A stretch of DNA of 64,000 nt from Gemmatimonadales bacterium (GTDB taxonomy: Bacteria; Gemmatimonadota; Gemmatimonadetes; Gemmatimonadales; JACORV01): NCBI GenBank assembly GCA_035502185.1, contig DATJUT010000101.1, forward strand, positions 24,300 through 88,299. The letters run 5' to 3'. A model generated the notes under the pieces. The model made no database searches, was not told the DNA's origin, and saw nothing but the letters and a program-made list of their open reading frames with translations. Below are positions 16,559 to 51,730 of the stretch, one piece after another; position 1 is the stretch's first letter; each line of letters opens with the position of its first letter. The translations under genes were made by a program, and so were the position numbers.

Positions 16559-17999
<1,441 letters not shown>

Positions 18000-18007
<8 letters not shown>

Positions 18008-19082: not shown

Positions 19083-19289
19083 CCTGTCCCGAAAGCTGGT
19101 CAGTTTGCGGCAGTCTCGCAATAATGGTGTCTCAGAAGCTCCCGTTTGAGACTCGCGCCCGGGGCAGCTGTCGCGCTCAGGACTCAGCCACCAGCGCTCG
19201 GGAATCGTCCTCACTCGGCTGGAGCTGACGAGGCACTTCCGCGTCCAGGGGGCGTCCAGGGGATGGAAGGGAATGGGCGCTTCGCCGAG

Positions 19290-19304
19290 CGGCATGGAAG
19301 GTGC
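19290..19304 (+). promoter_or_regulatory. Candidate sigma-54 (-24/-12) promoter CGGCATGGAAGGTGC
   Basis: GG-N10-GC spacing as in the TGGCACG-N4-TTGC consensus. 138 nt upstream of the cytochrome c ATG. Nearly identical to the boxes at 29926 and 35855. Confidence 0.5.
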
Positions 19305-19441
19305 CCTTCTCGAACGATCGTTCAGGTGCTACTTTGGCTTGGCGTCGTCCCGACGCCATTTCACTGCCTGGCCATGACCACGCCACGCATCGGCGCCGGG
19401 ATGGGCAGGCCGGACGTGAACCGCTGCAGCCGGAGGTGCTC

Positions 19442-19774
19442 ATGGTGGGCAGGATCCTGGTTCTATCCGCGGTAGTGGGGTTGGCGGCCGCCGGGTCGCT
19501 GGCGGCGCAGCAGCCCGCCGACGGCGCGGGGACGTACGCGAAGATGTGCGCATCGTGCCACGGGCCGCAGGGCACGCCGAGCGCCGCGATGGCGCGCGCC
19601 ATGGCGGGGTTGCCGGACTTCGCCGCCGCGGCGATGGCATCGGTGCCTGACAGCACGCTGCGAGGCGTCATCATGAACGGCAAGGGCCGGATGATGGCGG
19701 CGTACAAGAGCCGGCTGACGCCGGAGCAGATCACGGCGGTGCTGGCCTACCTTCGCACGCTCGCCAAGCACTAG
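19442..19774 (+). CDS. Monohaem class I cytochrome c
   Basis: GGAGGTG Shine-Dalgarno sequence. Signal peptide, single CASCH, distal Met region (MNGKGRMMAAYK). Confidence 0.85.
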   Translation: MVGRILVLSAVVGLAAAGSLAAQQPADGAGTYAKMCASCHGPQGTPSAAMARAMAGLPDFAAAAMASVPDSTLRGVIMNGKGRMMAAYKSRLTPEQITAVLAYLRTLAKH

Positions 19775-19806
19775 CGGCCGCGCCCGCGGCCGGTGGCGGA
19801 GGGACC

Positions 19807-20631
19807 ATGACCGTGGAACGCCTGGCGTTCGCGCTGGCGCTGTGCGTTTCCGCCGGCGTGGGGGTGGGGTTCGCCCAGCAGCCGAGCGGTGCGGGCGGTC
19901 CCACCGATCGCCGTGCGGCGAATCAGTGCGTCGCGTGTCACGGCGGTCTGAGCGACGCCACGGGTGCCGGGCACGGGTTCGCGGCGTGGCGGCAGTCGCC
20001 GCACGCGGCGGCCGGGGTGGGATGCGAGGCGTGCCACGGTGGGGATCCGACGGCGCGCGACCGGCTGGCGGCGCACCGCGGGGTGGTCGTGTCCACCGAC
20101 CCGGAGAGTCGGCTGTACTTCGTGCGCGTCCCCGACACCTGCGGCCGCTGCCACGCCTCCGAGGTCGGCTACTTCCGCACCAGCCTCCACTACGCGCGGC
20201 TCCGTGCCGACGGGCGTGGCCCGAACTGCGTGACCTGCCACGGTGCCATGGCCACCTCGGTGCTCACGCCGGAGCGCCTGCTCGGGACCTGCTCGGCCTG
20301 CCACATGGCGGGCGGCCTGGCGCCGCCGGACAAGGCGCGGGAGGCGGCACAGGTGCTCGCCCTGGCGCGGGTCGAGAACGTCCTGTTCGACGTCGTGGCG
20401 GCGCAGGCGGCGGCGCAGCGCGCGGCGCGGGGGGCGAGCCGGGCGCGCATCATGCTCGATGAAGCGGAGCGCCATCTGACGGCGGCGGCTGAGATCTGGC
20501 ACAGCTTCCGGCTCGACTCGGCCTCGGCGCGGCTTGGCGACGCCCGCGAGAACCTGGTGGCGGCCTGGGTCGCTCTCGGCCACGCGGCACCGCTCGAGGC
20601 CCGGCAGGGCCGCGCCGGCGGCGAGCGGTGA
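19807..20631 (+). CDS. Pentahaem cytochrome c
   Basis: Signal peptide. CVACH, CEACH, CGRCH, CVTCH and CSACH. The C-terminal ~100 aa are haem-free and helical. Confidence 0.85.
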   Translation: MTVERLAFALALCVSAGVGVGFAQQPSGAGGPTDRRAANQCVACHGGLSDATGAGHGFAAWRQSPHAAAGVGCEACHGGDPTARDRLAAHRGVVVSTDPESRLYFVRVPDTCGRCHASEVGYFRTSLHYARLRADGRGPNCVTCHGAMATSVLTPERLLGTCSACHMAGGLAPPDKAREAAQVLALARVENVLFDVVAAQAAAQRAARGASRARIMLDEAERHLTAAAEIWHSFRLDSASARLGDARENLVAAWVALGHAAPLEARQGRAGGER

Positions 20632-21629
20632 AGGAGCCGGACCGGGTTCCCAGGCTGGCACTGGCCGGCGGTCTGACGCTGGCCGTGTTGCTGGCCTTCA
20701 CGCTGCACCTGCCGCAGCGGCTGCTGTCGGTCGCGGGGCGTGGCGCGGCGCACCGCCTCGACGGCCGGGCCGCCCCCGGGGAGTACCGATTCCGGTGGTC
20801 CGACGACGCCAGCAAGCTGGTCTTCCAGTGGAGCATCGTCGGCGACCGCCTGATCGGCGCGGTGACGTCCCCCGACACCGGCTGGGTGGCGGTCGGATTC
20901 GGGGGCGAAGGGCCGCTGATGTACGGCGCGGACATCGTGATCGGCTTCGTGGACGCGCACGGCGCGCACCTGGAGGATCACTTCGCGAACACGCCTACGA
21001 GCCACGTCGCGGACGTCACGCTGGGCGGTCGGGACGACATCCTGGGCGGCGCCGGTCTCAAGACCGCTTCGGGAACGACGATCGAGTTCGAGCGGCCGCT
21101 GGCGGCACGCGACAGCACCGACCGCCCGATCGTCGCGGGCCAGATGAAGGTCATCGTGGCCTCCTCCGAGTCGCCGGACCCGATGGCGTATCACGTCGAG
21201 GGCCACAAGGCGGTCGCGCTGCTCGACCTGTTCAACGGGCCGCCCGCGGTTGCGGGGGCCGGCGCGCCGCTGCCGGACCACCTCACCGACGTCCAGATCA
21301 CGCTCGCGGCGTGGATGGCGATCCTGCTCATCATCGGGCTGCACGGGGTGGCGTCGACGTATGCGGAGGGACGGGCCCATCCGTCCGGTGGCGGGGCGGA
21401 CGAGCGGACGGCGGTGGCGGTCACGCTGATGGTGGTGCTGTTGCTGGTGGAGCTGGCGGCCCTTGGGTCCTTCGCCGTGGGCGTCGTGGTGGCGTGGCCG
21501 GTGTGGTTCCTCGGCGCGTCACTGGCGGTCGGCATGCTCGCCCTGGCCGGGATCGTGGTGCTGTACAGCCGGGCGTTCGTGCACTGGGAGACGAGGCGCG
21601 CGGAGCGCGACGACGGGATCCCGTGGTGA
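20628..21629 (+). CDS. Membrane protein with DOMON-like domain and C-terminal TM helices
   Basis: GTG overlaps the upstream stop (GTGA). DOMON-like pattern FQWSI...GWVAVGFGG...GADIVIGFV...TIEFERPL. 3-4 hydrophobic helices at the C-terminus. Confidence 0.6.
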   Translation: MKEPDRVPRLALAGGLTLAVLLAFTLHLPQRLLSVAGRGAAHRLDGRAAPGEYRFRWSDDASKLVFQWSIVGDRLIGAVTSPDTGWVAVGFGGEGPLMYGADIVIGFVDAHGAHLEDHFANTPTSHVADVTLGGRDDILGGAGLKTASGTTIEFERPLAARDSTDRPIVAGQMKVIVASSESPDPMAYHVEGHKAVALLDLFNGPPAVAGAGAPLPDHLTDVQITLAAWMAILLIIGLHGVASTYAEGRAHPSGGGADERTAVAVTLMVVLLLVELAALGSFAVGVVVAWPVWFLGASLAVGMLALAGIVVLYSRAFVHWETRRAERDDGIPW

Positions 21630-21677
21630 GGGCGCGCCGGCGCGGGGCAGCGTCGCCGGGCGCGGAGGGGGAGGCGC

Positions 21678-22250
21678 GTGGATCGTAGGCGCTTTGCCGA
21701 GCGGTCGCTGGTGGCCGCCATCGTGGCGGCGGTCGCCTCGGTGATTCCGGGCGTCCTGACGCTGCGCGGGCGCTCGCACTCGGCGGCGACCAAGGGCATC
21801 GAGGCCGGGGACCGTCTGGTGTTCGCGCTCGGGCAGAACGCGGGCCAGGCCATCACGGACGGGAGCTTCAGCCAGAACGAGGCCGTGCTCGCGTACCCCG
21901 ACGGGAAGTCCGACAACCACGAGAATCTGGTGCTGGTGTGCAAGCTGGACCCCGCGGCGCTCAAGCCGCCGCTGGACCTCGCCGGCGCCGCGCACGGGGT
22001 CGTCGCGTACAGCGCGATCTGCACGCACCTCGGCTGCACGGTGCGGTTCTCCGAGGAACCGATGGACCAGGCGCCGTTCCCGCACATCCACTGCCCGTGC
22101 CACGGCGCGATGTTCGATCCGCAGCGCGGAGGCATCGTCCTCGGCGGGCCGCCGCCGCGCCCGCTGCCCCAGCTCCCGATCAGGCTGAACGACAAGGGCG
22201 AGGTGCTGGTGGCCGGTCCGTTCGTCGCGCCCGTCGGCGTGAAGGCCTAG
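21678..22250 (+). CDS. Rieske [2Fe-2S] subunit of a cytochrome bc-type complex
   Basis: Twin-arginine signal MDRRRF. Cluster boxes CTHLGCTV and CPCHGAMF. Confidence 0.9.
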   Translation: MDRRRFAERSLVAAIVAAVASVIPGVLTLRGRSHSAATKGIEAGDRLVFALGQNAGQAITDGSFSQNEAVLAYPDGKSDNHENLVLVCKLDPAALKPPLDLAGAAHGVVAYSAICTHLGCTVRFSEEPMDQAPFPHIHCPCHGAMFDPQRGGIVLGGPPPRPLPQLPIRLNDKGEVLVAGPFVAPVGVKA

Positions 22251-22265
22251 GGAGCGGCGCGCCCC

Positions 22266-23522
22266 GTGACCATCCCCCGCTGGTTCGAGGAGCGCCTCGC
22301 GCTCGAGCGGTTCAAGGCGAAGTACCTGGGCAAGCCGTTCCCGGTCCACTCCACCTTCTTCCTCGGCGAGATTGCGCTGTTCTGCTTCGTGGTGCTGGTC
22401 GGCACCGGCTTGTACCTGGCTCTGTTCTACGAGCCGTCGGCGGCGCTGGTGGCGGCCGACGGGGGCCGGCTCCCGGCCGCGTACGCGAGCACGCTGGCCA
22501 TCGACGCCCAGCCGTTCTCCGCCCTGATGCGGCGGATCCACCACTGGGCGGCGCACCTGATGATCGCCGCCATGCTGCTGCACCTCGTGCGCGTCTACTT
22601 CACCGCCGCGTACAAGCGGCCCCGCGAGGCGAACTGGGTGCTGGGGCTGGGGCTGCTCGGCATGACCGTCGCGGCGTCGTTCGCCGGCTACCTGCTGCCG
22701 TACGACCAGTTCTCGGTCACGGCGACGGCGATCGGATACGGCATTGCGCGGTCGGTGCCGTGGATCGGGCCGACGCTGGCCGACTACGTGTTCGCCGGCC
22801 GGTTCCCGTCGCCGGAGACGGTGCCGCGGTTCTTCGCCTACCATGTGGTGCTGGCGCCGCTCGCCCTGAGCGCGCTGGTGGGGCTGCACCTCCTCATCGT
22901 GCTGAAGCAGAAGCACACCGAGCTCGGCGCCGCCGGCCGCCCCGATCCCGTCGAGGGGAAGTGGATCCGGGGCATTCCGCTGTGGCCCGAGCAGACCGCG
23001 CTGATGGGCGTGCTGTTCCTCGTGATCGTCGCCGTCGCGGCGGCGCTGGCGGCGTTCCTGCCCGTGCACCCCTCCGCGTTCTTCGGGCCGCCGCAGCCGG
23101 CGACGCCCGACGTCAAGCCGGACTGGTACCTGCTGTGGATCTACGGTGCGCTGCGGCTGATCCCTGGCACGCTGAGCTTCCGCATCCTGGGGGCGACGAT
23201 CGGGCCGGAGGCGATCGGCGCCATGCTGGTGCCCGGGATCATCGGCCTGATCGTCGTCCTCGTGCCGTGGATCGACCGCACGCCGTCGTCGCTCTACTAC
23301 GCCGAGGCGCCGACGGCGGGCCCGCGCCGCCTCGCGCTGGGGCTGGCGGTGGTGGTGTTGTTGCTGGCGCTCTCGCTCGCCGGTTTCGGGACGGAGCTGG
23401 GCCTCGGGGTGCCGGTGCTGTGGGGCATCACCGTGGCGGCGCCCGTCGCGACGGCGGTCGGCGCGAGCGCCCTGGCGCGGCGGCGGGCGGAAAAGGCAAT
23501 GCAGGGAGCAGGGGTGCGGTAA
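22266..23522 (+). CDS. Cytochrome b (fused b6/subunit IV-length) of a bc-type complex
   Basis: 418 aa, multiple TM helices. Haem-ligand His pairs in HHWAAHLMIAAMLLH and the following helices. PEWY-region-like motif PDWYLLW. Confidence 0.9.
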   Translation: MTIPRWFEERLALERFKAKYLGKPFPVHSTFFLGEIALFCFVVLVGTGLYLALFYEPSAALVAADGGRLPAAYASTLAIDAQPFSALMRRIHHWAAHLMIAAMLLHLVRVYFTAAYKRPREANWVLGLGLLGMTVAASFAGYLLPYDQFSVTATAIGYGIARSVPWIGPTLADYVFAGRFPSPETVPRFFAYHVVLAPLALSALVGLHLLIVLKQKHTELGAAGRPDPVEGKWIRGIPLWPEQTALMGVLFLVIVAVAAALAAFLPVHPSAFFGPPQPATPDVKPDWYLLWIYGALRLIPGTLSFRILGATIGPEAIGAMLVPGIIGLIVVLVPWIDRTPSSLYYAEAPTAGPRRLALGLAVVVLLLALSLAGFGTELGLGVPVLWGITVAAPVATAVGASALARRRAEKAMQGAGVR

Positions 23523-23525
23523 GCA

Positions 23526-23669
23526 GGGCAGTTGCCAGACGGCAAGTTGCCAGTGGTTCCAAGCGGCAAGTCAGAAGGGGTCAGCCCAGATGCCAGTACT
23601 GACAACTGGGCTGGCCCCTCATGACTTGCGTCTGGCAACCACTGGCAACTTGCCGTCTGGCAACTGCCC
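23526..23669. repeat. Long nearly perfect hairpin element (copy 1) between convergent operons
   Basis: The 33-nt arm GGGCAGTTGCCAGACGGCAAGTTGCCAGTGGTT is perfectly complementary to 23637..23669. The inner 24-nt arms (23566..23589 and 23606..23629) have 21 Watson-Crick pairs plus 1 G-U. The loop is 16 nt. Confidence 0.85.
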
Positions 23670-23687
23670 CGCACCCTGCGCCTCCGT

Positions 23688-25130
23688 CTACTGGGCCGGT
23701 ATCCCGGTCGTATGGCAGATCAGGCACATCGCCCGGTTCTTGCTCGCGACCGACGGGTTGAAGCCGGCGCCGTGCGGGTCGATGTGCTGGCCGCTCGTGG
23801 CCGAGTGGCAGCGGAGGCAGAAGTCCTGCGCGTGGCAGCTGGCGCAGGTCTCGATCGCGCGGCGCGCGACGCCGCCGTGCCCGAACAGCCACCCCGGCTG
23901 CTTGTCGTGATAGCCCGCGCTGACGGGCGTGGTGGCGCTGGAGCGCCCGAGCGCCTGGTGGCAGTCGTGGCAGAACACCTGGGTCTGGTGGCAGGCCGCA
24001 CACTCGGCCTCCGCCGCATAGGCCTGGGTCGCGTGCCGCAGCACGAAGTTCGGGCCGTGGAACGCGGGCGCCTTCGCCGCGGCATGGCAGGTCGTGCAGT
24101 ACGACGGCCGGTGGCAGGTCGCGCAGCTGGCCGTTCCGCCCGCGGCCATCTCCCGGTGGTGCAGCAGCTGGTCGGGCAGGTGGTCGGCCGGCTTGAGACC
24201 GGCCAGGTTGACGCCGAAGGCGCCGCCCGCCGCGCGGCGGGGCAGGGCGGCGATCGCCGGCACGCGCTCCTGCACGCGGTGGCAGCCGATGCACGACTCC
24301 TGGGCGTGGCAGTTGGCGCATTCGACGACGCCGGCGCGCGCGACGACGCCGTGGCGTCGCGTCCAGTCGCTGGCTTCGTGCGACGGCGGCCGCGGGTAGG
24401 CGAACGTGAGCGTCCGCACCAGCTCGGCCTCCCGGTCGTCGGCCGGGAGGTCGCGGATCGCCTGCACCGCACGCGCATTGACGTGGCAGGCGGCGCAGAA
24501 CTGCTGCGCGTGGCACACCGCGCAGGTCGGGCCCGCCGCCGCGGTCTGGTGGTGCAGGATCCAGCTCGAGTCGTGCGACGGCGGCTTGGGAAAGGCGCGG
24601 ATCGTCTCGACGCTCAGCGCCGCGGCGTCGTGCAGCGTGGCGTGGCACGGCTGGCACGACTCCTGGGCGAGGTGGCTCGGCGCGCCCTGGCCGTGGCAGG
24701 AAACGCACCGCGCCGGGTTCGCGCGGCCGACCTCCATGTACGGCAGGGAGTCGGCGCTGGCGTGGCACTTCTGGCAGTTGGCGCCCCCGCTGTCCATCGC
24801 CTCGAACATCGCGACGTGGGGGACGTGGTCGAACGTCAGGTTGGTGGCCCGTCGCTGGGGCGGCGTCCAGCTCACCGGGCGTGCGAGGTCGCCGTTGTGG
24901 CAGCCGGCGCACAGCTGCGGCGACGGCCAGACGTCGGCGGTGTCGCCGGTCGCGATGCCCGCGTGGCACGCGGCGCAGGTGGTGAACAGCCGGGCGTGGC
25001 GGGCGTGCGGGAACGTGTCGGTGGCGAAGCGGGCGGCGGCCGCGGGCCGCGGCCGGACGCTGCGGGGAGCCCACGCGCCGGCCAGCAGCGCCGACAACGC
25101 GAGCAGGGCGGAGGCGGCGCGCGCGATCAC
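23688..25130 (-). CDS. Periplasmic multihaem cytochrome c (16 CXXCH)
   Basis: GTG 25130 (GTGA overlap with the upstream gene). Signal peptide ALLALSALLAGAWA. 16 CXXCH motifs by my count, many as doubled CXXCH-x3/4-CXXCH pairs. Confidence 0.9.
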   Translation of the reverse strand: MIARAASALLALSALLAGAWAPRSVRPRPAAAARFATDTFPHARHARLFTTCAACHAGIATGDTADVWPSPQLCAGCHNGDLARPVSWTPPQRRATNLTFDHVPHVAMFEAMDSGGANCQKCHASADSLPYMEVGRANPARCVSCHGQGAPSHLAQESCQPCHATLHDAAALSVETIRAFPKPPSHDSSWILHHQTAAAGPTCAVCHAQQFCAACHVNARAVQAIRDLPADDREAELVRTLTFAYPRPPSHEASDWTRRHGVVARAGVVECANCHAQESCIGCHRVQERVPAIAALPRRAAGGAFGVNLAGLKPADHLPDQLLHHREMAAGGTASCATCHRPSYCTTCHAAAKAPAFHGPNFVLRHATQAYAAEAECAACHQTQVFCHDCHQALGRSSATTPVSAGYHDKQPGWLFGHGGVARRAIETCASCHAQDFCLRCHSATSGQHIDPHGAGFNPSVASKNRAMCLICHTTGIPAQ

Positions 25131-26527
25131 TGGTAGCTCCCGACGCGATCGGCGTCGGCCCCGATGGTCCAGTCGAAGGTGACCGAGGCGCGGGTCTGGT
25201 TCCAGTCGAGCCCGGTTGAGCCCGTCTGACGCCGCTGGAAGTAGCGCATCAGGTCCACCTTGAGCCCGACGCGACGGTCCAGTGCCGTCCCGAAGTCCGC
25301 GCCGAGCCCGTAGACGGTGCCCCCGGCGACCCGGAACATGTCGGTCTGCTGGAACGCGGTGGTCTGGACGCCGGCGTGCCATCCGCCGCCGGGAGACCAG
25401 GCGGCCCGGAGGTCCCCTCCGCTCTGGTCGCCGCCGAAGCCCAGCTCGAGGTGGTAGTCCCCGTCGATCGTGTAGGCGCCCCGCCGCACGTGCACGCCGG
25501 CCGTGGCCTCCTTCTGGTCGTTGCCGACGTCCACCAGGAACGGCGAGCCGCTGCTCAGCGGCTGCCAGCGCCGGTAGGTGAAGGCGCCGGACAGCGACAC
25601 GTCGCGCGCGGCCGCCACGTTGACGGTCGCCGACACGCCGTAGTGCGACTCGGGCGAGAACACGCCCCAGATGGTCGAGAGATCCAGCGTCGGCCGGTAC
25701 TGGAACGCCTCGAGCTGGACCGAGTTGCCGTTCCCGAGCAGCACCGTCGCGCTGATGCGCGCCTTGCCCCATTGCTGCCGCGCCACGTCGGCGTCGGCCG
25801 ATCCCGCCAGCACCACCCGGGAGCCCACCCCCAGGCGGCCGTCGAACGCTGCGCGCTCGGACACCAGCCCGCTGCGGTCGGACAGCAGCTCGCGCTGGTA
25901 GATGGCCGAGAAGCTCGAGCGCGGCGAGGGCGCCGCCCACAGCGACGCACCGAGCAGGATGGTGCCGTGATCTTGCTGCAGCGGGTCGAGCGAGGTGATG
26001 GCCGAGCTGTTGGGCGCGTCGAGCGACGCGCGCGCCAGGCCGCGACCTCCGTAGCCCTCGATCCGCAGCGCCGCGAGGGGCCTCCAGCTGGCCGTCAGGC
26101 CGTCGAAGGCGTACCACCCGAGCCCGGACGCGCGCTGCTGCCGGCCGCCGCGCAACAGGTAGTGCGGCCGCTCCAGCTCGAGGTAGGCGTACATGGTCTG
26201 GAAGTGCTCGTCGGACTCGGGCCAGATCAGGCCGGAGCCGAGAGCGGCGCGGCCCCGCACGAGCGCGTACGCCCGCAGGCCCTCGATGCCCAGACCCCAC
26301 GCCGAGACCTCGAGGTCCTGGGTGAACGGCGCCGCGTAGGTGGCCGGCAGCGACACGAAGGCGCCCGTATCGTTGTTGGCCGCCGAATCGAACGCGATCG
26401 GCCGCAGTTGCACGTACTGGGTCGTGGTCGTGCCGTGTACGCGGATGTCCTGGCCGCGGAGCGCGGGGGCGCGGGCCGCGGCGAGCGCGAGCAGGACGGG
26501 GGCGATCCGTAGGAGCGGGTAGCGCAT
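25127..26527 (-). CDS. Outer-membrane beta-barrel protein (porin of a porin-cytochrome module)
   Basis: Signal peptide MRYPLLRIAPVLLALAAARAPALRGQ. No Cys. Alternating amphipathic segments rich in G/Y/W/R/D. Embedded between multihaem cytochrome genes. Confidence 0.7.
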   Translation of the reverse strand: MRYPLLRIAPVLLALAAARAPALRGQDIRVHGTTTTQYVQLRPIAFDSAANNDTGAFVSLPATYAAPFTQDLEVSAWGLGIEGLRAYALVRGRAALGSGLIWPESDEHFQTMYAYLELERPHYLLRGGRQQRASGLGWYAFDGLTASWRPLAALRIEGYGGRGLARASLDAPNSSAITSLDPLQQDHGTILLGASLWAAPSPRSSFSAIYQRELLSDRSGLVSERAAFDGRLGVGSRVVLAGSADADVARQQWGKARISATVLLGNGNSVQLEAFQYRPTLDLSTIWGVFSPESHYGVSATVNVAAARDVSLSGAFTYRRWQPLSSGSPFLVDVGNDQKEATAGVHVRRGAYTIDGDYHLELGFGGDQSGGDLRAAWSPGGGWHAGVQTTAFQQTDMFRVAGGTVYGLGADFGTALDRRVGLKVDLMRYFQRRQTGSTGLDWNQTRASVTFDWTIGADADRVGSYQ

Positions 26528-26529
26528 CG

Positions 26530-28188: not shown

Positions 28189-28323
28189 CCCTGCCCGGGC
28201 ACTCTCCCGAAGTTCCCGCACGGCAAGCGGGCCGGCCCCTGGTGCTGGACCGACCCGCTAAGCTTCGCTGGGCATCGAACGCCGTGCAATCCGGCGCCGG
28301 TCCCTGTCCTCCGGCGCCCCGGT

Positions 28324-29823
28324 TCAGCGCTGGGCGATCCTCACGCCGAGCCGGGCCGCCTCGGCGGCGATCCGGGCTTGGGCGGCCGGCGGCGCGGTCA
28401 GCGCGTACTGCGCCTGCACCGCCTGGATGGTGGCGATCAGGAGCGCCCGCAGGTACGGCGCGTTGTGGGCGCCGTGCGAGCGGTCGGCGGTGATCAGCTG
28501 CACGTTGAACCGCCCGCCCTCCGCCACCGTGTACGGCAGGGTGTTGTTGACCGTGGCGCTCCGGGTCTTGAACTCCGTGGCCGGCACCTTGGTCAGCAGC
28601 CCGGTGTCGACCGAGTCGATCTTGCCGTTGCCGTTGACGTCCGTCCAGATGATCCCGGCCAGATACTGCAGCTCGGTCGACGTCGCCTGGAACACCGTGC
28701 GCGCCGCGGCCTCGGACGAGTGGCATCCGCTGGTCGCGCACGCGGCGAAGCTGCGCACGGAGACGTCGCACGAGTTGGTGGAGTCGATGCCGGCGGTGTC
28801 CACGCACGGGATCGCGTAGAAGCTGTGGCCCGTGTAGTGCCAGGCCAGCTGGCCCTTGGAGTCGTTCACGTCGAGCGTCGCCAGATGGCAGGTCGCGCAC
28901 AGCTGGGGATTCGCGGTGGAATTCGAGTGCGTCGTGACGCTGGTCGAGTCCCACACGAAGCCGGCCGGCCGCCACCCGGCCGTGCCCAGGAACGTCGGAC
29001 CCTGCGGCGAATGCGGGCCGCTGGCCGACGTCAGGTCGGGCACCGAGCGCCGGTGGTGGCACTGGATGCACAGGTTCATCGTGTCCGCGGTCGTGATGGA
29101 CGCCCGCAGTTCGTGCGTGTTGGCGCTGCCGTGCGGATTGTGGCAGCTGGTGCAGCCGATCGGGTAGGCCGTCGTGCTCCCCGCCTCGAGGTACACGTCA
29201 CTGCCACCGAACCGCTGCATCACGGTCTTGCCCTCGTGACACTGGATGCAGGTCCCGCTGGTGTTCGAAATGGCCGGCGCCTCGATGATCCCGTGCGCGC
29301 CGCGCGACCAGTCCTCGTAGAACGGGTTGTGCGGCGGGCCGCTGTGGCACTCACCGCAACCGACGCCCCTGGTCGAGTCGTACGAAACGAACGAGGGAAT
29401 CGGCTGGGTCTCGTCCGGGGTGGCGACGTGCAGCTGCCCCGGCCCGTGACAGGCCTCGCACTGCACGTCCTGGTAGTACTTCTGCGCGGTCGCCGAGGCG
29501 CTCGGGAAGCCCGCCGTGTCGGCACCGAGGTTCGTCGCGCCGCTGGTGGTATGGCACTTGTTGCAGCTGCTGTTCGCGTGCCCGCTCGCCTGCAGGTCCT
29601 TCCAGGCGTTGGCGTGCCCGGTCTGGATCCAGCTCGCCTGCTTCAGGACGTGGCAGTTGCCGCACGTCGTCTGCTTCGTGTCCGGGTTGCTGTACCCGAC
29701 GAAGGCGGCATCCTTGGCGTTGACCCCGGACGGCGAGGTGGTGTTGTCCTTCACGCACCCGGCTGCCGCAAGGGCGAACGCCGTACCCAGCACCAGATGT
29801 CCGACGCGGATCGCGTGTCTCAT
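28324..29823 (-). CDS. Lipoprotein multihaem cytochrome c (8 CXXCH + 1 CX4CH)
   Basis: GAGGAA Shine-Dalgarno sequence. Signal peptide with lipobox LAAAGC. CGNCH, CNKCH, CEACH, CGECH, CIQCH, CTSCH, CIQCH, CATCH and CATSGCH. Confidence 0.88.
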   Translation of the reverse strand: MRHAIRVGHLVLGTAFALAAAGCVKDNTTSPSGVNAKDAAFVGYSNPDTKQTTCGNCHVLKQASWIQTGHANAWKDLQASGHANSSCNKCHTTSGATNLGADTAGFPSASATAQKYYQDVQCEACHGPGQLHVATPDETQPIPSFVSYDSTRGVGCGECHSGPPHNPFYEDWSRGAHGIIEAPAISNTSGTCIQCHEGKTVMQRFGGSDVYLEAGSTTAYPIGCTSCHNPHGSANTHELRASITTADTMNLCIQCHHRRSVPDLTSASGPHSPQGPTFLGTAGWRPAGFVWDSTSVTTHSNSTANPQLCATCHLATLDVNDSKGQLAWHYTGHSFYAIPCVDTAGIDSTNSCDVSVRSFAACATSGCHSSEAAARTVFQATSTELQYLAGIIWTDVNGNGKIDSVDTGLLTKVPATEFKTRSATVNNTLPYTVAEGGRFNVQLITADRSHGAHNAPYLRALLIATIQAVQAQYALTAPPAAQARIAAEAARLGVRIAQR

Positions 29824-29925
29824 AGGCGGTTCCTCGCGCTTCCCAGACGTGTTCGCTGCTCAGCCCCAAGAGTCCAGCGCCCGTATGTGCTGTGCCGGGA
29901 GCTAGGTAGTCGTACGGACGTATGG

Positions 29926-29940
29926 GCATCGGCCATGCCA
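29926..29940 (-). promoter_or_regulatory. Candidate sigma-54 (-24/-12) promoter TGGCATGGCCGATGC
   Basis: The minus strand reads CCTGGCATGGCCGATGCCC, with correct GG-N10-GC spacing. About 100 nt upstream of the lipoprotein cytochrome ATG. An AT-rich region lies further upstream. Confidence 0.55.
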
Positions 29941-30319
29941 GGTGGTGGAGCACCGTAACCAATTGAAATAGAACGTGTTATGATGCAGTTCTTCAGTTGA
30001 AACCAGGTAAGCGAATCTCTTGTGTCCGAATTCACAAACTCGCGGTGGACAGATTGCGACAAGGGTTGGCTGGGGTACCGATGCGTGTCCGCCCGGGCCC
30101 GAGCGGTCAATGCCGACTGGGCGCGGATGAAAGGCAGGGGGCCGGGGTAGAAGCTGCGCGGGAGCAGGCTCCGAGGCTGGTGGTACGGCCGGGCAGGACT
30201 GGAAGGACGGCCACCGAGCTGGAACCTCGTCAGCCGCAGAAGCCCGGCTCCCCGACCCTGCCGGGCCGAGCTGGCCCGCGCTGCGGTTCCGACCTCACTT
30301 CCTCCGACGGAGCAAACCG

Positions 30320-30841: not shown

Positions 30842-30842
30842 C

Positions 30843-31529: not shown

Positions 31530-31613
31530 GCTCGGCCGCGCCGGGGGAATGTCAAGCCGCCCACCTTGCGGCCCGGCTCGGCCCCCGCAAGGTTAGCGTC
31601 GGGAAGTCCGGGA

Positions 31614-32477: not shown

Positions 32478-32542
32478 GCGGCGCTTCCACGCGGCAGGTC
32501 CGGGTCGTTAGCTTGCGGGCGTTCCCGCCCGCGAGGACCGAG

Positions 32543-32950: not shown

Positions 32951-32957
32951 GGGCGGA

Positions 32958-33374
32958 GTGGGAGGTCGGATGGCGAACAGCAAGCTGCCGTGGCTCGTGG
33001 CCGGCGTCGCGGTCGTCGCGACGGCGGCGATCCTGGTGGCGACCCGGGGCGCGGGCGGAGGGCATCATCCGACGCCGCGCCCGGGCATCACCGGCGCGAG
33101 GGTGCTGCCGGCCTCGACGTTCGGCGAGGACGAGCGCCTGGTGCGGGCCTACGAGGCGGCGCGGGCGATGCCCGAGCTGTTCGACGGCCTGTACTGCTAC
33201 TGCCACTGCAAGGAAGACATGGGCCACGTCTCGCTGCTGACGTGCTACGAGTCCGAGCACGCGGCGTCGTGCGACATCTGCCTGGGCGAGGCGGCGATCG
33301 CGGTTCAGATGCACGCGGCCGGCGCGTCGCTGGAGGAGATCCGGCGCGCGATCGACGCGCGCTACAAGACCTAG
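32958..33374 (+). CDS. Membrane-anchored CYCxC-motif (PCYCGC-like) protein
   Basis: N-terminal TM helix. The motif LYCYCHC is followed by LLTCYESEHAASCDIC. Confidence 0.55.
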   Translation: MGGRMANSKLPWLVAGVAVVATAAILVATRGAGGGHHPTPRPGITGARVLPASTFGEDERLVRAYEAARAMPELFDGLYCYCHCKEDMGHVSLLTCYESEHAASCDICLGEAAIAVQMHAAGASLEEIRRAIDARYKT

Positions 33375-34039
33375 CGGCCCGCGGTGAAGGTCGGGGTCCG
33401 CGCCTCCAGGCGGCGGTGCGGCAGCCCCGACAGGCGGATCAGGAGGCGGCGCGCCCCGACGGCCAGCGCGCCCCCCAGCCCGCCGCGGCTGGAGATGGCC
33501 GGCCCGACGTCGCCCCGCAGCCACCGCTCGACCTCGTCGAGATCCGATTGCGACAGCGACGTGATGTCGAGGGTCGCGAGGTAGTAGTAGCGGGTCTGGG
33601 GCCCCGCGGCCGGGGGCACCATCTCGACGGTGAACGCCTTCGCCATGGCCCGGCTCACCACATCCATGGCCGTGAAATGCGCCACGTCGCCGCCGGTGCG
33701 GATCAGGTCGAACTCCCCGGACAGCGGATCGAGGCGGACGACCGCGTCCCACTCGACTTCGCCCTGCAGGTGGTCGAGCAGCGGCGCCTGTCTCCACAGC
33801 TCCAGACGGAAGTGGAACCGGACCGAGAACCCGTTCCGCAGGGCCCCATCGAAGACGCCGTCTTCGAGGAGGCGCTCGGCGCGGACGACCGGGGGCAGCA
33901 GTTGCGCCTCCGAGTCGCGCGACAGCGTGATGGTGAGGTGCGGCGGGACGGGGGGGGCGCGCTCGCGGACTTCCTGGGCGCGGACCGCGGTGCCGGCGCT
34001 CACGATCAGCGCGAGCAGGAGCCCCGCGGCCCGGTTCAC
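33371..34039 (-). CDS. Periplasmic protein, DUF4390-like
   Basis: Signal peptide. Overall pattern (ALRNGFSVRFHFRLELWR...YYYLATLD) is recalled as DUF4390-like. Family assignment is from memory only. Confidence 0.45.
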   Translation of the reverse strand: MNRAAGLLLALIVSAGTAVRAQEVRERAPPVPPHLTITLSRDSEAQLLPPVVRAERLLEDGVFDGALRNGFSVRFHFRLELWRQAPLLDHLQGEVEWDAVVRLDPLSGEFDLIRTGGDVAHFTAMDVVSRAMAKAFTVEMVPPAAGPQTRYYYLATLDITSLSQSDLDEVERWLRGDVGPAISSRGGLGGALAVGARRLLIRLSGLPHRRLEARTPTFTAGR

Positions 34040-34043
34040 CCTC

Positions 34044-35819
34044 CTAGAAGCGCCGGCCCATCCGCACGGTGAAGGTCACCGCGCGGTTGGCTTGGTCGAG
34101 CGGCTTGGCCAGGTAGAAGCCGAGCGGGCCGAAGTCCAGCCCGAGGCCGATGTCGGTCCGGAGCGAGCTCAGCGAAGGCAGCTTGTCGGCGGGAATCTGG
34201 TCCGGCCCCACGTTCCCGTCGCGGGCGACCGACCACGCCCGGCCCGCGTCGGCGAACACCACGAGGTCGGGTCCGCTGACGTGGAAGGGCTCGTAGTGCT
34301 CGTCGCGGGCGTCGCCCCAGTCGCTCGCCCACTTCGGCCCGAAGTCGAAGCCGAGGTGGGTCCGGAACTCCGCCTGGGCCACGATCGCCCGGTCGCACAG
34401 CGCCGGGTCGCCCAGTACGCCGGTGCCGCCGCACGAGAACTGGCGCCAGCCGTAGCCCGGCAGCGGATCGGGGTAGCCCAGCGACAGACGCCGCTGGAGC
34501 GGCAACGGCTCGCCGCCCAGCCAGCCGCCCCCGGCCAGGCGCAGGTCGAGCCGGCCGGTCGGCGAGAGGCGCAGGTAGCGGCGCGCGTCGAACGCCATCC
34601 GCTCGAAGCCCAGGTTGCCGTCGGCGAGGGCCGGATCGACGCACGGGACGGTGATGCAGGCCCGCGGGCCCAGGCTCCCGGTGACGTCGCCGCCGTGGCT
34701 CAGCTCGTACTCGCCGGTGACGAACCAGCCGGCGCTCGGCGAGCCCGCGTCGTTGCGGGTGTCGAGGCGGAACGACGTGATCAGCGAGCGGTACTTGCCG
34801 TCGGTGACGGCGGGATTGACGCGCCAGGGCTCGTCGCTCCGGAACAGCGTCCAGGGCGTCCGCGCCTCGAGCGACGACTCGCGCTCGTCGCGCCCTTCGG
34901 CCGTGACCGACAGCTGTGGCGAGAGCCGCAGCGTCGCGTACAGGCTCCCGCCGTGGCGCCGGTAGTAGTCGCGGTAGTCGCGGTGGAACAGGAAGGACGC
35001 CCAGCCGACCTCGAAGTCCTTGAGCGGCCAGGCCTCGACCGGCGCGACCGCGTCGAAGCCCCGTACGCCCAGGCCCAGGTTGCGGGCCGCGCCGCCCAGC
35101 ACGAACTCCGCCCGCGCGTTGTACCCGATGTCGTCGCCGTCGAGGGAAATGTCGCTGGTGCGGACGATCGCTGTCGCGTCGGCCTGGAACCGCACGCGGT
35201 CGGCGACCCGCAGGTCGGCGCGCGGGCCGAACAGGATGGGCAACCCCTCGATGCGGTTGTACGTCCCCGCGAGCGCCAGGAGGATCCCGGTGTTGTTGGC
35301 CTGGTCCTGGCCCCAGTCGTACTGCTGGATCCAGCGCGGCGGCTGGAACGCCCGCTCCGGCGCGTACACCAGTTGGTCGCCCTGCCGGTGGTAGCGCAGG
35401 GGGTCGCGGTACCAGCGGACCTCGCCCTGGATGCTCGCCTGGTCCGCGCCCTGGACGACGCCGCCGACCACCAGCACCGTGCCGCCGACCGTGGCGCCCG
35501 GCTCGAAGATCACGTCGCCGTTCACCACCACCAGCGCGCCGCTGATGCGGCCGCCGACCACCACCGGTCCGCCGAGGACCGCGAGGTCGCCGTCGATGCC
35601 CCGCGCCGCGGGGATGCGCGTCGAGCCGGTGAGGCGGATCGTGCTGTCGGCGTTGAACAGCCCGATGACTTCCTCGGCGACGTCGCGCGGCAGCTCCCGC
35701 GGCGAGAGTCGCGCGGCCGCCCCGGGCTGCGCCGGCCGGATCCTGATGGTGCTGTCCTGGCCACGCGCCGGTGCCGCCGCCACGAGGGCCAGCAGTGCTG
35801 CCAGTGCCGCCTTGCTCAT
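34044..35819 (-). CDS. Omp85/surface-antigen-type outer-membrane barrel with N-terminal bactofilin-like beta-helix repeats
   Basis: Signal peptide ...APARGQD. Gly/Val-rich repeats GDLAVLGGPVVVGGRISGALVVVNGDVIFEPGATVGGTVLVVGG. C-terminal barrel ending TFTVRMGRRF. Confidence 0.7.
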   Translation of the reverse strand: MSKAALAALLALVAAAPARGQDSTIRIRPAQPGAAARLSPRELPRDVAEEVIGLFNADSTIRLTGSTRIPAARGIDGDLAVLGGPVVVGGRISGALVVVNGDVIFEPGATVGGTVLVVGGVVQGADQASIQGEVRWYRDPLRYHRQGDQLVYAPERAFQPPRWIQQYDWGQDQANNTGILLALAGTYNRIEGLPILFGPRADLRVADRVRFQADATAIVRTSDISLDGDDIGYNARAEFVLGGAARNLGLGVRGFDAVAPVEAWPLKDFEVGWASFLFHRDYRDYYRRHGGSLYATLRLSPQLSVTAEGRDERESSLEARTPWTLFRSDEPWRVNPAVTDGKYRSLITSFRLDTRNDAGSPSAGWFVTGEYELSHGGDVTGSLGPRACITVPCVDPALADGNLGFERMAFDARRYLRLSPTGRLDLRLAGGGWLGGEPLPLQRRLSLGYPDPLPGYGWRQFSCGGTGVLGDPALCDRAIVAQAEFRTHLGFDFGPKWASDWGDARDEHYEPFHVSGPDLVVFADAGRAWSVARDGNVGPDQIPADKLPSLSSLRTDIGLGLDFGPLGFYLAKPLDQANRAVTFTVRMGRRF

Positions 35820-35854
35820 GCCACGCTCCTGCAGGAGTGCCGCGCCGCATCAAG

Positions 35855-35869
35855 GCACGGCCCATGCCG
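35855..35869 (-). promoter_or_regulatory. Candidate sigma-54 (-24/-12) promoter CGGCATGGGCCGTGC
   Basis: The minus strand reads GCGGCATGGGCCGTGCCTT. The -12 GC lies about 36 nt upstream of ATG 35819, with a GGAG Shine-Dalgarno sequence between them. Directly downstream of a sigma-54 activator gene. Confidence 0.5.
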
Positions 35870-51712: not shown

Positions 51713-51730
51713 TCCGACCGGAAACGAAAC

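What the first reader, a model, noticed from the sequence alone, without database searches (positions are those of the whole stretch)
19290..35869. Three near-identical sigma-54-type -24/-12 boxes tie two NtrC-family systems to the redox and envelope operons
Each box is read on its coding strand.
- P(bc), 19290..19304 (+): CGGCATGGAAGGTGCCC
- P(pcc), 29940..29926 (-): TGGCATGGCCGATGCCC
- P(omp85), 35869..35855 (-): CGGCATGGGCCGTGCCT

All three keep the invariant GG-N10-GC spacing of the TGGCACG-N4-TTGC consensus and share GGCATGG-N4-xTGCC. Each lies in an intergenic region 36-140 nt upstream of a start codon that has a Shine-Dalgarno sequence. Two GAFTGA/GSFTGA enhancer-binding response regulators (16559..18007 and 35982..37358), each with a cognate kinase, lie immediately next to P(bc) and P(omp85). 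This implies sigma-54-gated expression of the whole electron-transfer locus.
Basis: partly seen in the sequence, partly recalled or inferred. Interest (0 to 1): 0.68.

Follow-up and report, generated by a model that had tools for sequence, protein, structure and literature searches.

The report
Conserved sigma-54 promoters in a Gemmatimonadales genome
The three short boxes are very probably real sigma-54 promoters, conserved across dozens of related soil bacteria, that switch on respiratory cytochrome operons and an outer-membrane protein operon; this confirms the finding, but the regulatory design is a textbook one.

Summary
The three boxes exist as quoted, apart from small coordinate and notation slips. 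A generic sigma-54 matrix does not single them out. Comparative data does. The window is from a Gemmatimonadales MAG. In 8 (P(bc)), 14 (P(pcc)) and 23 distinct (P(omp85)) orthologous sequences, the GGCA-N7-TGC core is 100% invariant, against 9-23% invariant non-coding columns around it.

Relatives often carry the canonical TTGC. The -11 base varies (C/T/G), which rules out a symmetric operator and fixes the orientation towards the downstream genes.

Both neighbouring regulators are complete NtrC-class activators (GAFTGA, GSFTGA).

I found two more promoters of the same kind:
- A conserved box at 52007..51992 before a conserved 49-aa gene.
- A weaker candidate at 16427..16412 before a USP gene.

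P(omp85) and the 49-aa gene promoter share the upstream palindrome GTGTC-N5-GACAC. Its only two copies in 64 kb lie 105 and 81 nt upstream of the GG, which points to EBP2 driving both. P(pcc) has its own 46-nt conserved enhancer-like block, and its activator is unassigned.

rpoN could not be checked in this MAG, but Gemmatimonas aurantiaca has it. The closest precedent is Geobacter BccR/cbcBA. Verdict: confirmed; a new member of a known kind; modest interest.

The parts
16412..16427 (-). P(usp): candidate fifth -24/-12 box, TGGTACGCGATGCGCA. GG-N10-GC spacing is kept; it deviates from consensus at -23 (T) and -14 (C). It lies about 13 nt upstream of the conserved GTG/ATG start of the USP gene (15674..16399).
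   Evidence: Matrix hit. Invariant in 10 of 10 genomes.
16482..16511 (-). GC-rich terminator-like hairpin after the EBP1 stop codon. It separates the HK1-EBP1 operon from P(usp).
   Evidence: Alignment A7: stem maintained with changes on both arms in L003/L013. Coordinates.
16559..18007 (-). EBP1: NtrC-class response regulator (REC, sigma-54 interaction AAA+ with GAFTGA, HTH_8).
18000..19082 (-). HK1: PAS-domain histidine kinase. The true start is ATG 19082, not the longest-ORF start at 19295.
   Evidence: Pfam. Conserved start codon in A1.
19105..19121 (.). Palindrome TTGCG-N7-CGCAA (family form TTGC-N9-GCAA). Apart from the box, it is the only conserved island in the HK1/bc divergent region. 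Candidate EBP1 binding site and/or HK1 operator.
   Evidence: GCAA invariant. Unique in the window.
19290..19305 (+). P(bc): -24/-12 box CGGCATGGAAGGTGCC.
   Evidence: Conserved as CGGCAyrGAAnTTGCC in 8 genomes, plus L010.
19442..23522 (+). bc-type operon: cytochrome c (19442-19774), 5-heme c7-type cytochrome (19807-20631), DOMON protein (20628-21629), Rieske protein (21678-22250), cytochrome b (22266-23522).
   Evidence: Pfam. Heme counts. Synteny.
23688..29823 (-). Multiheme operon: MHC1 lipoprotein with 8 CXXCH (28324-29823), MHC2 with 17 CXXCH (26530-28221), a 466-aa secreted protein with no family match that is an unverified porin candidate (25127-26527), and MHC4 with 16 CXXCH (23688-25130).
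   Evidence: The AF2 model is uninformative.
29902..29918 (-). Conserved block TCCGTACGACTACCTAG spanning the predicted transcription start of P(pcc). Its function is unknown.
   Evidence: No RNA structure is supported.
29925..29940 (-). P(pcc): -24/-12 box TGGCATGGCCGATGCC.
   Evidence: TGGCA-N7-TGC invariant in 14 genomes.
29955..29966 (-). IHF-like core TCAATTGGTTAC (AA-N4-TTA). Its TT lies 18 nt upstream of the GG.
   Evidence: Conserved A...TT columns in A4. Same motif and spacing at P(small), and spacing +10 at P(usp).
30015..30061 (-). Enhancer-like block TGTCGCAATCTGTCCA-N8-TTGTGAATTCGGACACAAGAGAT. It contains TTGTG-N8-CACAA and TGT-N10-ACA.
   Evidence: Nearly invariant in 14 genomes. 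Unique in the window.
33371..35819 (-). Envelope operon: Omp85-family protein (34044-35819) and a 222-aa secreted protein of unknown family (33371-34039).
35854..35869 (-). P(omp85): -24/-12 box CGGCATGGGCCGTGCC.
   Evidence: Present in all 26 related loci that include the upstream region. 23 distinct sequences. Alignment A3.
35966..35980 (.). Palindrome GTGTC-N5-GACAC, 2 nt after the EBP2 stop codon. Its centre is 105 nt upstream of the GG of P(omp85). Proposed EBP2 enhancer site.
   Evidence: Arms invariant and spacer variable in 15 aligned loci. One of only 2 copies in the window. Present in all omp85 loci.
35982..37358 (-). EBP2: NtrC-class response regulator with GSFTGA.
37355..38590 (-). 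HK2: HAMP-domain membrane histidine kinase.
51730..51755 (-). Intrinsic-terminator-like hairpin that ends the small-gene transcription unit.
   Evidence: Conserved in A5.
51780..51929 (-). Conserved 49-aa protein gene (MATAILAATEPVGIVIRDGADVHRAPRILMWFWADEEEANDVEEWRERN).
   Evidence: 12 homolog clusters at 71-94% identity.
51992..52007 (-). P(small): fourth -24/-12 box AGGCACGAGGAATGCC, 62 nt upstream of the 49-aa ORF.
   Evidence: GGCACG-N4-ATGC invariant in 8 loci.
52080..52094 (.). Second copy of the palindrome GTGTC-N5-GACAC. Its centre is 81 nt upstream of the GG of P(small), and it overlaps the stop codon of the upstream methyltransferase gene.

Best explanation
The boxes are genuine sigma-54 (RpoN) -24/-12 promoters of a Gemmatimonadales bacterium. 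The window holds at least four of them and probably five. Sigma-54 holoenzyme would sit at each box as a closed complex and fire only when an NtrC-class activator, phosphorylated by its kinase, binds an upstream enhancer and remodels the complex by ATP hydrolysis through its GAFTGA loop.

Proposed wiring:
- HK2 (HAMP sensor) and EBP2 act through the palindrome GTGTC-N5-GACAC. They would drive the adjacent Omp85-family/222-aa operon and also a 49-aa protein gene 16 kb away.
- HK1 (PAS sensor) and EBP1 drive the divergently transcribed cytochrome c / c7 / DOMON / Rieske / cytochrome b operon, probably through the TTGC-N9-GCAA palindrome.
- The multiheme (porin-cytochrome-like) operon has its own sigma-54 promoter with a large dedicated enhancer-like block and an IHF-like bend site. 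Its activator is not identified; EBP1 is the candidate by conserved synteny only.

Shown here: the sequences, their positions, their invariance across genomes, their strand asymmetry, the activators' domain content, and the shared palindrome. Inferred: sigma-54 binding, transcription start sites, which activator binds which site, the sensed signals, and IHF involvement.
For: (1) GG-N10-GC is kept in all boxes, with 8-9 of 12 consensus positions matched in the window and 9-10 of 12 in orthologs.
(2) Footprinting: the seven core columns GGCA..TGC are 100% invariant in 8 (bc), 14 (pcc), 15 (omp85) and 8 (small) aligned genomes. Background invariant fractions are 0.09-0.23 and mean non-coding identity is 0.63-0.72.
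(3) Asymmetry: G at -25 is invariant, but its palindromic partner at -11 is C, T or G. Where it is T, the reverse strand reads AGCA, so only the forward orientation survives.
(4) All four a-priori pattern sites in the window are intergenic and face a start codon. Across 535 kb of related DNA there are 70 intergenic against 6 coding hits (orthologous sites, so not independent).
(5) Negative controls: non-strict intergenic matrix hits at 23522 and 49535 are not conserved.
(6) Both activators have REC + AAA+ (Walker A, GAFTGA/GSFTGA) + HTH_8. EBP1-HK1 next to the bc operon and EBP2 directly upstream of omp85 are conserved in all loci.
(7) GTGTC-N5-GACAC occurs exactly twice in 64 kb (0.13 expected). 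Both copies lie 81-105 nt upstream of a box and are conserved in every orthologous locus of both promoters.
(8) Natural decay: in L009 the -24 GG is GA and the downstream cytochrome c ORF is truncated.
(9) No sigma-70-type consensus lies in the pcc and omp85 intergenic regions.
(10) Sigma-54 is present in Gemmatimonas aurantiaca T-27 (PMC3162934, additional file 1).
(11) Precedent: the Geobacter cbcBA bc-cytochrome operon has a sigma-54 promoter and needs the divergently encoded activator BccR (bioRxiv 10.1101/2021.04.15.440034).
Against: There is no experimental start site or rpoN dependence. The window copies have non-canonical -15/-14/-11 bases (GTGCC, ATGCC) and score modestly with a generic matrix. 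The enrichment statistics use orthologous loci and a partly post hoc motif. The TTGC-N9-GCAA palindrome sits 23 nt from the HK1 start and may simply be the HK1 promoter or operator. P(bc) and P(pcc) share no upstream element. In L008 the best box near HK1 faces the kinase rather than the bc operon, so the wiring is not identical in all relatives. P(usp) deviates at -14 and leaves almost no leader.
Confidence: 0.82

Rival explanations
1. The sigma-54 promoters are real, but the adjacent activators are not the ones that fire them. Other enhancer-binding proteins encoded elsewhere in the genome would bind the conserved upstream elements, and the neighbouring two-component systems would regulate something else. 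This rival is strongest for P(pcc).
For: The P(pcc) enhancer-like block resembles neither the GTGTC-N5-GACAC nor the TTGC-N9-GCAA element. G. aurantiaca is listed with about a dozen activators, so many candidates exist. The 49-aa gene promoter works 16 kb from any activator gene, showing that adjacency is not required.
Against: Activator-promoter adjacency is conserved in every genome examined. The EBP2 stop codon is 2 nt from the palindrome in all omp85 loci. Cis-linkage of an activator gene to its target is the common pattern and holds for BccR/cbcBA.
Confidence: 0.12
2. The boxes are operators for a dimeric transcription factor that recognises the inverted repeat GGCA-N7-TGCC, and they only mimic a -24/-12 promoter.
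For: All window copies are palindromic (GGCA-N7-TGCC, with 5-bp arms in some), and several read as acceptable -24/-12 sites on both strands.
Against: Conservation is asymmetric. G at -25 is invariant, while its symmetric partner at -11 is C/T/G. Orthologs drift toward TTGCT, the sigma-54 consensus, which destroys the palindrome. The sigma-54 consensus itself contains GGCA-N7-TGC. Separate conserved upstream palindromes occupy the usual enhancer distance.
Confidence: 0.04
3. The similarities are chance matches in a 73% G+C genome, or RNA-level hairpins in read-through transcripts, with no promoter function.
For: A generic matrix gives equal or better scores to many coding sites. The relaxed pattern is not enriched overall. 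GGCAU..GUGCC could form a short hairpin in an EBP2-omp85 read-through RNA.
Against: The same seven bases are invariant at four unlinked loci in 8-23 diverged genomes. Sequence is conserved rather than covarying. The non-conserved look-alikes serve as controls. P(bc) and P(pcc) lie in divergent regions, where no read-through transcript exists.
Confidence: 0.02

Closest known systems
Geobacter sulfurreducens BccR / cbcBA (bc-type cytochrome operon with a sigma-54 promoter and a divergently transcribed response-regulator activator)
   Same: A response-regulator enhancer-binding protein (REC + sigma-54 interaction + HTH) is encoded divergently from a b/c-type cytochrome quinol-oxidoreductase operon that carries a -24/-12 promoter. 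In both cases the operon sits in a genome with large multiheme cytochrome sets.
   Different: The cargo is not homologous. CbcB is a thiosulfate-reductase-like di-heme b protein paired with a 7-heme CbcA. Here the cargo is a cytochrome b6/bc1-type protein (PF00033/PF13631) with Rieske, DOMON, c7-type and mono-heme c subunits. A PAS kinase is co-encoded here. The phylum differs, and this system has no experimental data.
Classical NtrC/NtrB-glnAp2-type sigma-54 promoters (enhancer 80-150 bp upstream, optional IHF bend, -24 GG / -12 GC)
   Same: GG-N10-GC spacing; palindromic upstream sites 81-178 nt from the GG; an AA-N4-TTA island between enhancer and promoter; an activator with GAFTGA; and a two-component kinase.
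   Different: The -12 element in this genome is G/ATGCC rather than TTGCW. The enhancer half-sites (GTGTC, TTGC) differ from NtrC's TGCACC. The targets are respiratory and envelope genes, not nitrogen assimilation genes. Neither activator reaches any NCBIfam equivalog cutoff.
Sigma-54 as 'controller of the bacterial exterior' (Francke et al. 2011, PMC3162934)
   Same: One regulon here is an Omp85-family outer-membrane protein operon, and another encodes lipoprotein and outer-membrane-associated multiheme cytochromes. Both fit the reported link between sigma-54 and envelope functions in diderm bacteria.
   Different: That study is a cross-phylum statistical association. As far as I could find, it did not describe these Gemmatimonadales promoters or their enhancer sites.
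Geobacter RpoN regulon promoters (consensus TTGGCACGGTTTTTGCT)
   Same: Sigma-54 promoters in front of extracellular-electron-transfer cytochrome genes. Verified promoters there match 9-11 of 13 consensus bases, comparable to 8-10 of 12 here.
   Different: The Gemmatimonadales boxes prefer GGCAYR and a G/C-rich spacer, with -11 often C.

Membership tests
Sigma-54 (RpoN)-dependent -24/-12 promoter | GG and GC dinucleotides separated by exactly 10 nt | tested here: met
   All three reported boxes and the two additional ones keep the spacing. GG and GC are invariant in every ortholog except L009, where the downstream gene has decayed.
Sigma-54 (RpoN)-dependent -24/-12 promoter | Resemblance to the extended consensus TGGCACG-N4-TTGCW (Barrios et al., as quoted in PMC2725144) | tested here: met
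   8-9 of 12 positions in the window and 9-10 of 12 in orthologs, several of which have TTGC. A generic matrix alone is not discriminating.
Sigma-54 (RpoN)-dependent -24/-12 promoter | Intergenic location, oriented toward a downstream gene | tested here: met
   35-137 nt from the GC to start codons that have SD sequences. Orientation is fixed by orthologs with -11 = T.
Sigma-54 (RpoN)-dependent -24/-12 promoter | A cognate enhancer-binding protein with an intact GAFTGA loop and Walker A motif is present | tested here: met
   EBP1 has GAFTGA and EBP2 has GSFTGA; both have GxxGxGK.
Sigma-54 (RpoN)-dependent -24/-12 promoter | Upstream activator sequence (usually a palindrome) about 80-200 bp upstream | tested here: met
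   GTGTC-N5-GACAC lies 105 and 81 nt upstream of the GG. A 46-nt block lies about 75-120 nt upstream of P(pcc). TTGC-N9-GCAA lies 178 nt upstream of P(bc); this one is a candidate only.
Sigma-54 (RpoN)-dependent -24/-12 promoter | rpoN is encoded in the same genome | not testable with these tools
Sigma-54 is listed for Gemmatimonas aurantiaca T-27, which belongs to the same order.
Sigma-54 (RpoN)-dependent -24/-12 promoter | Transcription starts about 12 nt downstream of the GC and depends on rpoN and on an activator | not testable with these tools
   This needs 5' RACE or dRNA-seq and mutants.
NtrC-class two-component enhancer-binding proteins | REC domain with phospho-acceptor Asp, sigma-54-interaction AAA+ domain, C-terminal Fis-type HTH, and an adjacent histidine kinase | tested here: met
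   Pfam PF00072 + PF00158 + PF02954 in both proteins. Kinase genes overlap them by 4-8 nt. No named equivalog (AtoC, NtrC, ZraR and others) reaches its cutoff.
Geobacter BccR/CbcBA system | Cargo is a CbcB-type (thiosulfate-reductase-like) di-heme b cytochrome plus the 7-heme CbcA | tested here: not met
   The cargo here is cytochrome b/b6 (PF00033, PF13631, PF00032) + Rieske + DOMON + a 5-heme c7-type protein. The resemblance is in regulatory architecture only.
Symmetric (palindromic) transcription-factor operator | Equal conservation of the two half-sites | tested here: not met
   -25 G is invariant, while its symmetric partner at -11 is C/T/G. Orthologs with TGCT or TGCG break the palindrome.
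Porin-cytochrome (Pcc/Mtr-like) outer-membrane conduit (cargo of P(pcc)) | A beta-barrel porin is encoded between periplasmic and outer-surface multiheme cytochromes | tested here: inconclusive
   Three multiheme cytochromes (8, 17 and 16 CXXCH; one has a lipobox) flank a 466-aa secreted protein with no Pfam or NCBIfam hit. The single-sequence AF2 model has pLDDT 30 and is uninformative.

The most novel reading that the evidence does not exclude
A PAS-kinase/EBP1/sigma-54 switch, together with a second dedicated enhancer, gates a complete quinol-to-outer-membrane electron conduit (Rieske/cytochrome b complex plus a porin-cytochrome-like multiheme operon) in soil and peat Gemmatimonadales. This would be functionally parallel to the redox-potential-tuned BccR/CbcBA switch of Geobacter, and would imply conditionally expressed extracellular electron transfer in a phylum not known for it. 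In parallel, a HAMP-kinase/EBP2 regulon would couple an Omp85-family protein to a conserved 49-aa protein as an envelope-remodelling module.
Probability: 0.3. Interest if true: 0.55.

Novelty: new member of a known kind. Interest (0 to 1): 0.35.

Why it matters
The result gives a concrete, testable regulatory map for an uncultured Gemmatimonadales lineage. The map has four to five sigma-54 promoters, a lineage-specific box profile (yGGCAyr-N4-nTGCy), and three distinct enhancer-like elements, one of which links two unlinked operons to one activator. If the cytochrome operons really form an electron conduit to the cell surface, these promoters are the handle for asking when soil Gemmatimonadales use it, since the box and enhancer sequences can be searched in metatranscriptomes. 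Mechanistically it adds nothing new to sigma-54 biology.

Tried and rejected
1. A generic sigma-54 matrix (my own approximation of the Barrios consensus) does not separate P(bc) and P(omp85) from coding background, so motif strength alone was dropped as evidence.
3. The consensus with 2 mismatches gave only coding or irrelevant hits.
4. Rfam on 15000-53000 gave no family.
5. RNA structure in the conserved P(pcc) leader: 4 invariant pairs, no covariation, -1.6 kcal/mol; rejected.
6. A shared enhancer between P(bc) and P(pcc): none beyond chance 8-mers.
7. Other intergenic matrix hits (23522-23537, 49535-49550) are not conserved in orthologs and were rejected as promoters.
8. RpoN-box (ARRTVAKYR) search of all 1.33 Mb held: found only in two Thermomicrobiales loci, none in Gemmatimonadales.
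9. The Francke et al. supplements hold no sigma-54 sequence that could seed a search.
10. The single-sequence AlphaFold model of the porin candidate has pLDDT 30 and is unusable.
11. The sigma-70 consensus scan found nothing in the pcc and omp85 intergenic regions. It found one weak, non-conserved match over the bc palindrome.
12. NCBIfam gave no specific names for the activators, Omp85, the 222-aa protein, the DOMON protein or the 49-aa protein.

Full report
OBSERVATION. The three strings are in the window exactly as quoted: 19290-19306 (+) CGGCATGGAAGGTGCCC, 29940-29924 (-) TGGCATGGCCGATGCCC, and 35869-35853 (-) CGGCATGGGCCGTGCCT. The 'shared' motif was also written one base too long: as literally written it gives 0 hits. 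The correct core, GGCATGG-N4-TGCC, gives exactly these three hits against 0.11 expected. That pattern was derived from the sites themselves.

All three boxes keep GG-N10-GC. The window is 72.8% G+C. My GC3-based gene map agrees with the gene calls on an identical metagenome contig, ENA ERZ27256617.

- PAS histidine kinase HK1 and NtrC-class activator EBP1 (16559-18007).
- Divergent from them, an operon of cytochrome c, a 5-heme c7-type cytochrome, a DOMON protein, a Rieske protein and cytochrome b.
- A minus-strand operon of three multiheme cytochromes (8, 17 and 16 CXXCH) plus a 466-aa secreted protein with no family match.
- An Omp85-family gene followed by a 222-aa gene, directly downstream of the HAMP kinase HK2 and activator EBP2 (35982-37358).

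EBP1 carries GAFTGA and EBP2 carries GSFTGA, and both have Walker A motifs. The longest ORF of HK1 would swallow P(bc), and the CAT inside GGCATGG is that ORF's ATG. The conserved start is ATG 19082, so the box is intergenic.

IS IT MORE THAN CHANCE? Motif strength alone does not show it. A generic sigma-54 matrix (my own approximation of the published consensus mrNrYTGGCACG-N4-TTGCWNNw, quoted in PMC2725144) ranks P(pcc) second in the window at 13.2 bits. It gives P(bc) and P(omp85) only 8.6 bits, which is no better than many coding sites, and total hits equal shuffle expectation.

The a-priori pattern GGCAYG-N5-TGC gives 5 hits at 4 sites against 3.6 expected. However, all four sites lie in the 7.3% of the window that is intergenic, and each faces a start codon.

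COMPARATIVE EVIDENCE. A genome scan with the cytochrome b protein shows the source is a Gemmatimonadales bacterium and returned about 15 related Gemmatimonadota loci. Synteny is conserved: USP-EBP1-HK1, then divergently cyt c-c7-DOMON-Rieske-cyt b, then the convergent multiheme operon. A metagenome scan with the Omp85 protein returned 36 loci, and EBP2 is directly upstream wherever the contig reaches that far.

At the position of P(bc), seven other genomes carry CGGCAyrGAAnTTGCC, with the canonical TTGC -12 element. L010 has it too. At P(pcc), 14 genomes keep TGGCA-N7-TGC. At P(omp85), all 26 loci that include the upstream region carry CGGCAyrnnCCnTGCy, in 23 distinct sequences counting the window copy.

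In each alignment the seven core columns (GGCA..TGC) are 100% invariant. Only 9-23% of the other non-coding columns are invariant, and mean non-coding identity is 63-72%.

Across 535 kb of related DNA the a-priori pattern is 86-fold denser in intergenic than in coding sequence: 70 against 6 hits, with 2 of the 6 being a miscalled omp85 box. These are largely orthologous sites, so the count is not independent evidence.

As negative controls, two weaker intergenic matrix hits in the window (23522, 49535) have no counterpart in orthologs. In L009 the -24 GG has become GA, and the cytochrome c ORF downstream is cut by an early stop, so promoter and first gene have decayed together.

SIGMA-54 BOX OR PALINDROMIC OPERATOR? 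The window copies are palindromic (GGCA-N7-TGCC), and several also read as -24/-12 sites on the opposite strand. Conservation, however, is asymmetric. G at -25 never varies, while its symmetric partner at -11 is C, T or G. Where it is T or G the reverse strand reads AGCA or CGCA and loses its GG. This happens in pcc orthologs, in the omp85 clade L074-L077, and in bc L014. It is the pattern expected for sigma-54 (GG and GC invariant, C-23, A-22 and T-14 strong, -11 loose).

ADDITIONAL PROMOTERS. The fourth a-priori hit, 52007..51992 (-) AGGCACGAGGAATGCC, lies 62 nt upstream of a 49-aa ORF (51929..51780, GC3 about 0.92). That ORF is followed by an 11-bp-stem terminator-like hairpin. The small protein is conserved in 12 clusters at 71-94% identity. 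In 7 further loci the GGCACG-N4-ATGC box is invariant.

A fifth, weaker candidate is TGGTACGCGATGCGCA (16427..16412). It sits after a covarying terminator hairpin that closes the HK1-EBP1 operon, and about 13 nt before the conserved GTG/ATG start of a universal-stress-protein gene. It is identical or nearly so in 10 of 10 genomes. It keeps GG-N10-GC but has T at -23 and C at -14, and it would give an almost leaderless mRNA. I rate it about 0.45.

ENHANCER-LIKE ELEMENTS AND WIRING. Upstream of P(omp85), 2 nt after the EBP2 stop codon, the palindrome GTGTC-N5-GACAC has invariant arms and a variable spacer in all aligned loci. The same palindrome sits upstream of the 49-aa gene promoter, overlapping the stop codon of the preceding methyltransferase gene.

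The palindrome occurs exactly twice in the 64-kb window against 0.13 expected; 2 of 100 shuffles reach two copies. The two centres lie 105 and 81 nt upstream of the respective GG. The palindrome is present in every orthologous locus of both promoters. Invariant arms, a free spacer and identical arms at two unlinked loci fit a protein-binding site rather than an RNA hairpin. I infer that one activator serves both promoters, and by conserved adjacency that activator is EBP2.

In the HK1/bc divergent region the only conserved island besides the box is TTGCG-N7-CGCAA (19105-19121; family form TTGC-N9-GCAA). It is unique in the window and its centre lies 178 nt upstream of the GG, but only 23 nt from the HK1 start. 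It may be the EBP1 site, the HK1 operator, or both.

P(pcc) has its own almost invariant 46-nt block at 30061..30015, which contains TTGTG-N8-CACAA and TGT-N10-ACA. It is unique in the window and shares no element with P(bc). Its activator is therefore unassigned.

P(pcc), P(small) and P(usp) all show a conserved AA-N4-TTA island between enhancer and box, with its TT 18, 18 and 28 nt upstream of the GG. This resembles the core of the E. coli IHF consensus WATCAANNNNTTR (my own knowledge), and IHF is typically used at RpoN promoters (abstract of PMC7962754). The 10-nt offset fits helical phasing. This point is inference only.

OTHER CHECKS.
- No Rfam family was found in 15000-53000.
- No sigma-70-type consensus lies in the pcc or omp85 intergenic regions.
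- The strongly conserved block TCCGTAyGAcTACC (29918..29902) spans the predicted start of P(pcc). No RNA structure is supported for it, and its role is unexplained.
- Neither activator reaches any NCBIfam equivalog cutoff; both are generic AtoC/NtrC/ZraR-like proteins.
- rpoN is not in the window or in any held Gemmatimonadales DNA. Sigma-54 (YP_002761129.1) is listed for Gemmatimonas aurantiaca T-27, and sigma-54 is reported to be almost universal in LPS-bearing diderm bacteria (PMC3162934).

COMPARISON WITH THE KNOWN. The architecture is the classical sigma-54 one: an activator, an enhancer, and a -24/-12 promoter. [quoted passage not shown] It needs BccR, a divergently transcribed response-regulator activator, for induction at low redox potential (bioRxiv 10.1101/2021.04.15.440034). 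The resemblance is regulatory, not homologous, because the cargo here is a Rieske/cytochrome b-type complex.

Sigma-54 promoters before electron-transfer cytochrome genes are also part of the Geobacter RpoN regulon (PMC2725144). An Omp85 operon under sigma-54 fits the 'bacterial exterior' theme of Francke et al.. Porin-cytochrome clusters next to bc1-type subunits have already been reported in MAG surveys (PMC13264449).

VERDICT. It is a new member of a known kind, useful as a regulatory map for an uncultured lineage but not surprising to a specialist. I score interest at 0.35. My confidence that the boxes are genuine sigma-54 promoters is about 0.85-0.9. For EBP2 driving P(omp85) and P(small) it is about 0.65, for EBP1 driving P(bc) about 0.6, and for EBP1 driving P(pcc) about 0.35.

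Noticed in passing
window 51780-52094 (-): A compact transcription unit: a GTGTC-N5-GACAC palindrome, a conserved -24/-12 box, a conserved 49-aa protein with an acidic, Trp-rich C-terminus and no family match, and a terminator. It shares its palindrome with the Omp85 promoter 16 kb away.
   Followed up: yes
window 16412-16427 (-): An invariant TGGTACGCGATGCGCA sits about 13 nt upstream of the USP start codon, after a covarying terminator hairpin (16482-16511). It is possibly a sigma-54 promoter that gives a near-leaderless mRNA, though it is atypical at -14.
   Followed up: partly
window 29902-29918 (-): TCCGTAyGAcTACC, plus a downstream yACGGG, is almost invariant in 14 genomes around the predicted start of P(pcc). 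No RNA structure is supported. It may be a second regulator's site or a constraint on the initial transcribed sequence.
   Followed up: partly
window 23523-23672: A 150-nt perfect-register inverted repeat (75-nt arms, 87% complementary, no spacer) fills the convergent gap between cytochrome b and the last multiheme gene. It is built from GGCAAGTTGCCAG-like units and may be a bidirectional terminator or a repeat element. Conservation was not checked.
   Followed up: no
window 49816-49878 (+): A tiny Lys-rich ORF (MAMKKKKAAKKTAKKSKKKK) with a GAGGAGG Shine-Dalgarno sequence and a following GC-rich hairpin with a T-run, in the FdhA-like/FHA divergent region.
   Followed up: no
L009 4530-4720: In this relative the P(bc) box reads cGACATGGAACTTGCC (-24 GG changed to GA), and the cytochrome c ORF downstream is truncated after 10 codons. 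Promoter and first gene appear to have decayed together.
   Followed up: partly
L008 7214-7230 and 7501-7516: In this more distant relative the best box next to HK1 (TGGCATGCCGATTGCC) faces the kinase operon. A second box (GGGCACGGTACCTGCA) sits 84 nt before the c7 gene, and no cytochrome c gene lies between them. This suggests rewiring or bidirectional use of a palindromic box.
   Followed up: partly
window 19290-19306 and 35853-35869: Because the boxes are palindromic, the reverse strands also read as good -24/-12 sites (GGCACC-N4-ATGC and GGCACG-N4-ATGC), pointing toward HK1-EBP1 and antisense into EBP2. The reverse reading is lost in some orthologs, so it is probably not selected.
   Followed up: partly
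L026 about 9030 (-) and L029 about 9230 (-): In two Thermomicrobiales MAGs an rpoN gene (RpoN box ARRTVAKYR) lies within 10 kb of the homologous cytochrome b locus.
   Followed up: no
All Gemmatimonadota loci held (471 kb coding): The a-priori pattern GGCAYR-N5-TGC is rarer in coding DNA (6 hits) than the roughly 26 extrapolated from the window's dinucleotide-shuffle rate. This could reflect codon structure or avoidance of spurious sigma-54 sites.
   Followed up: no
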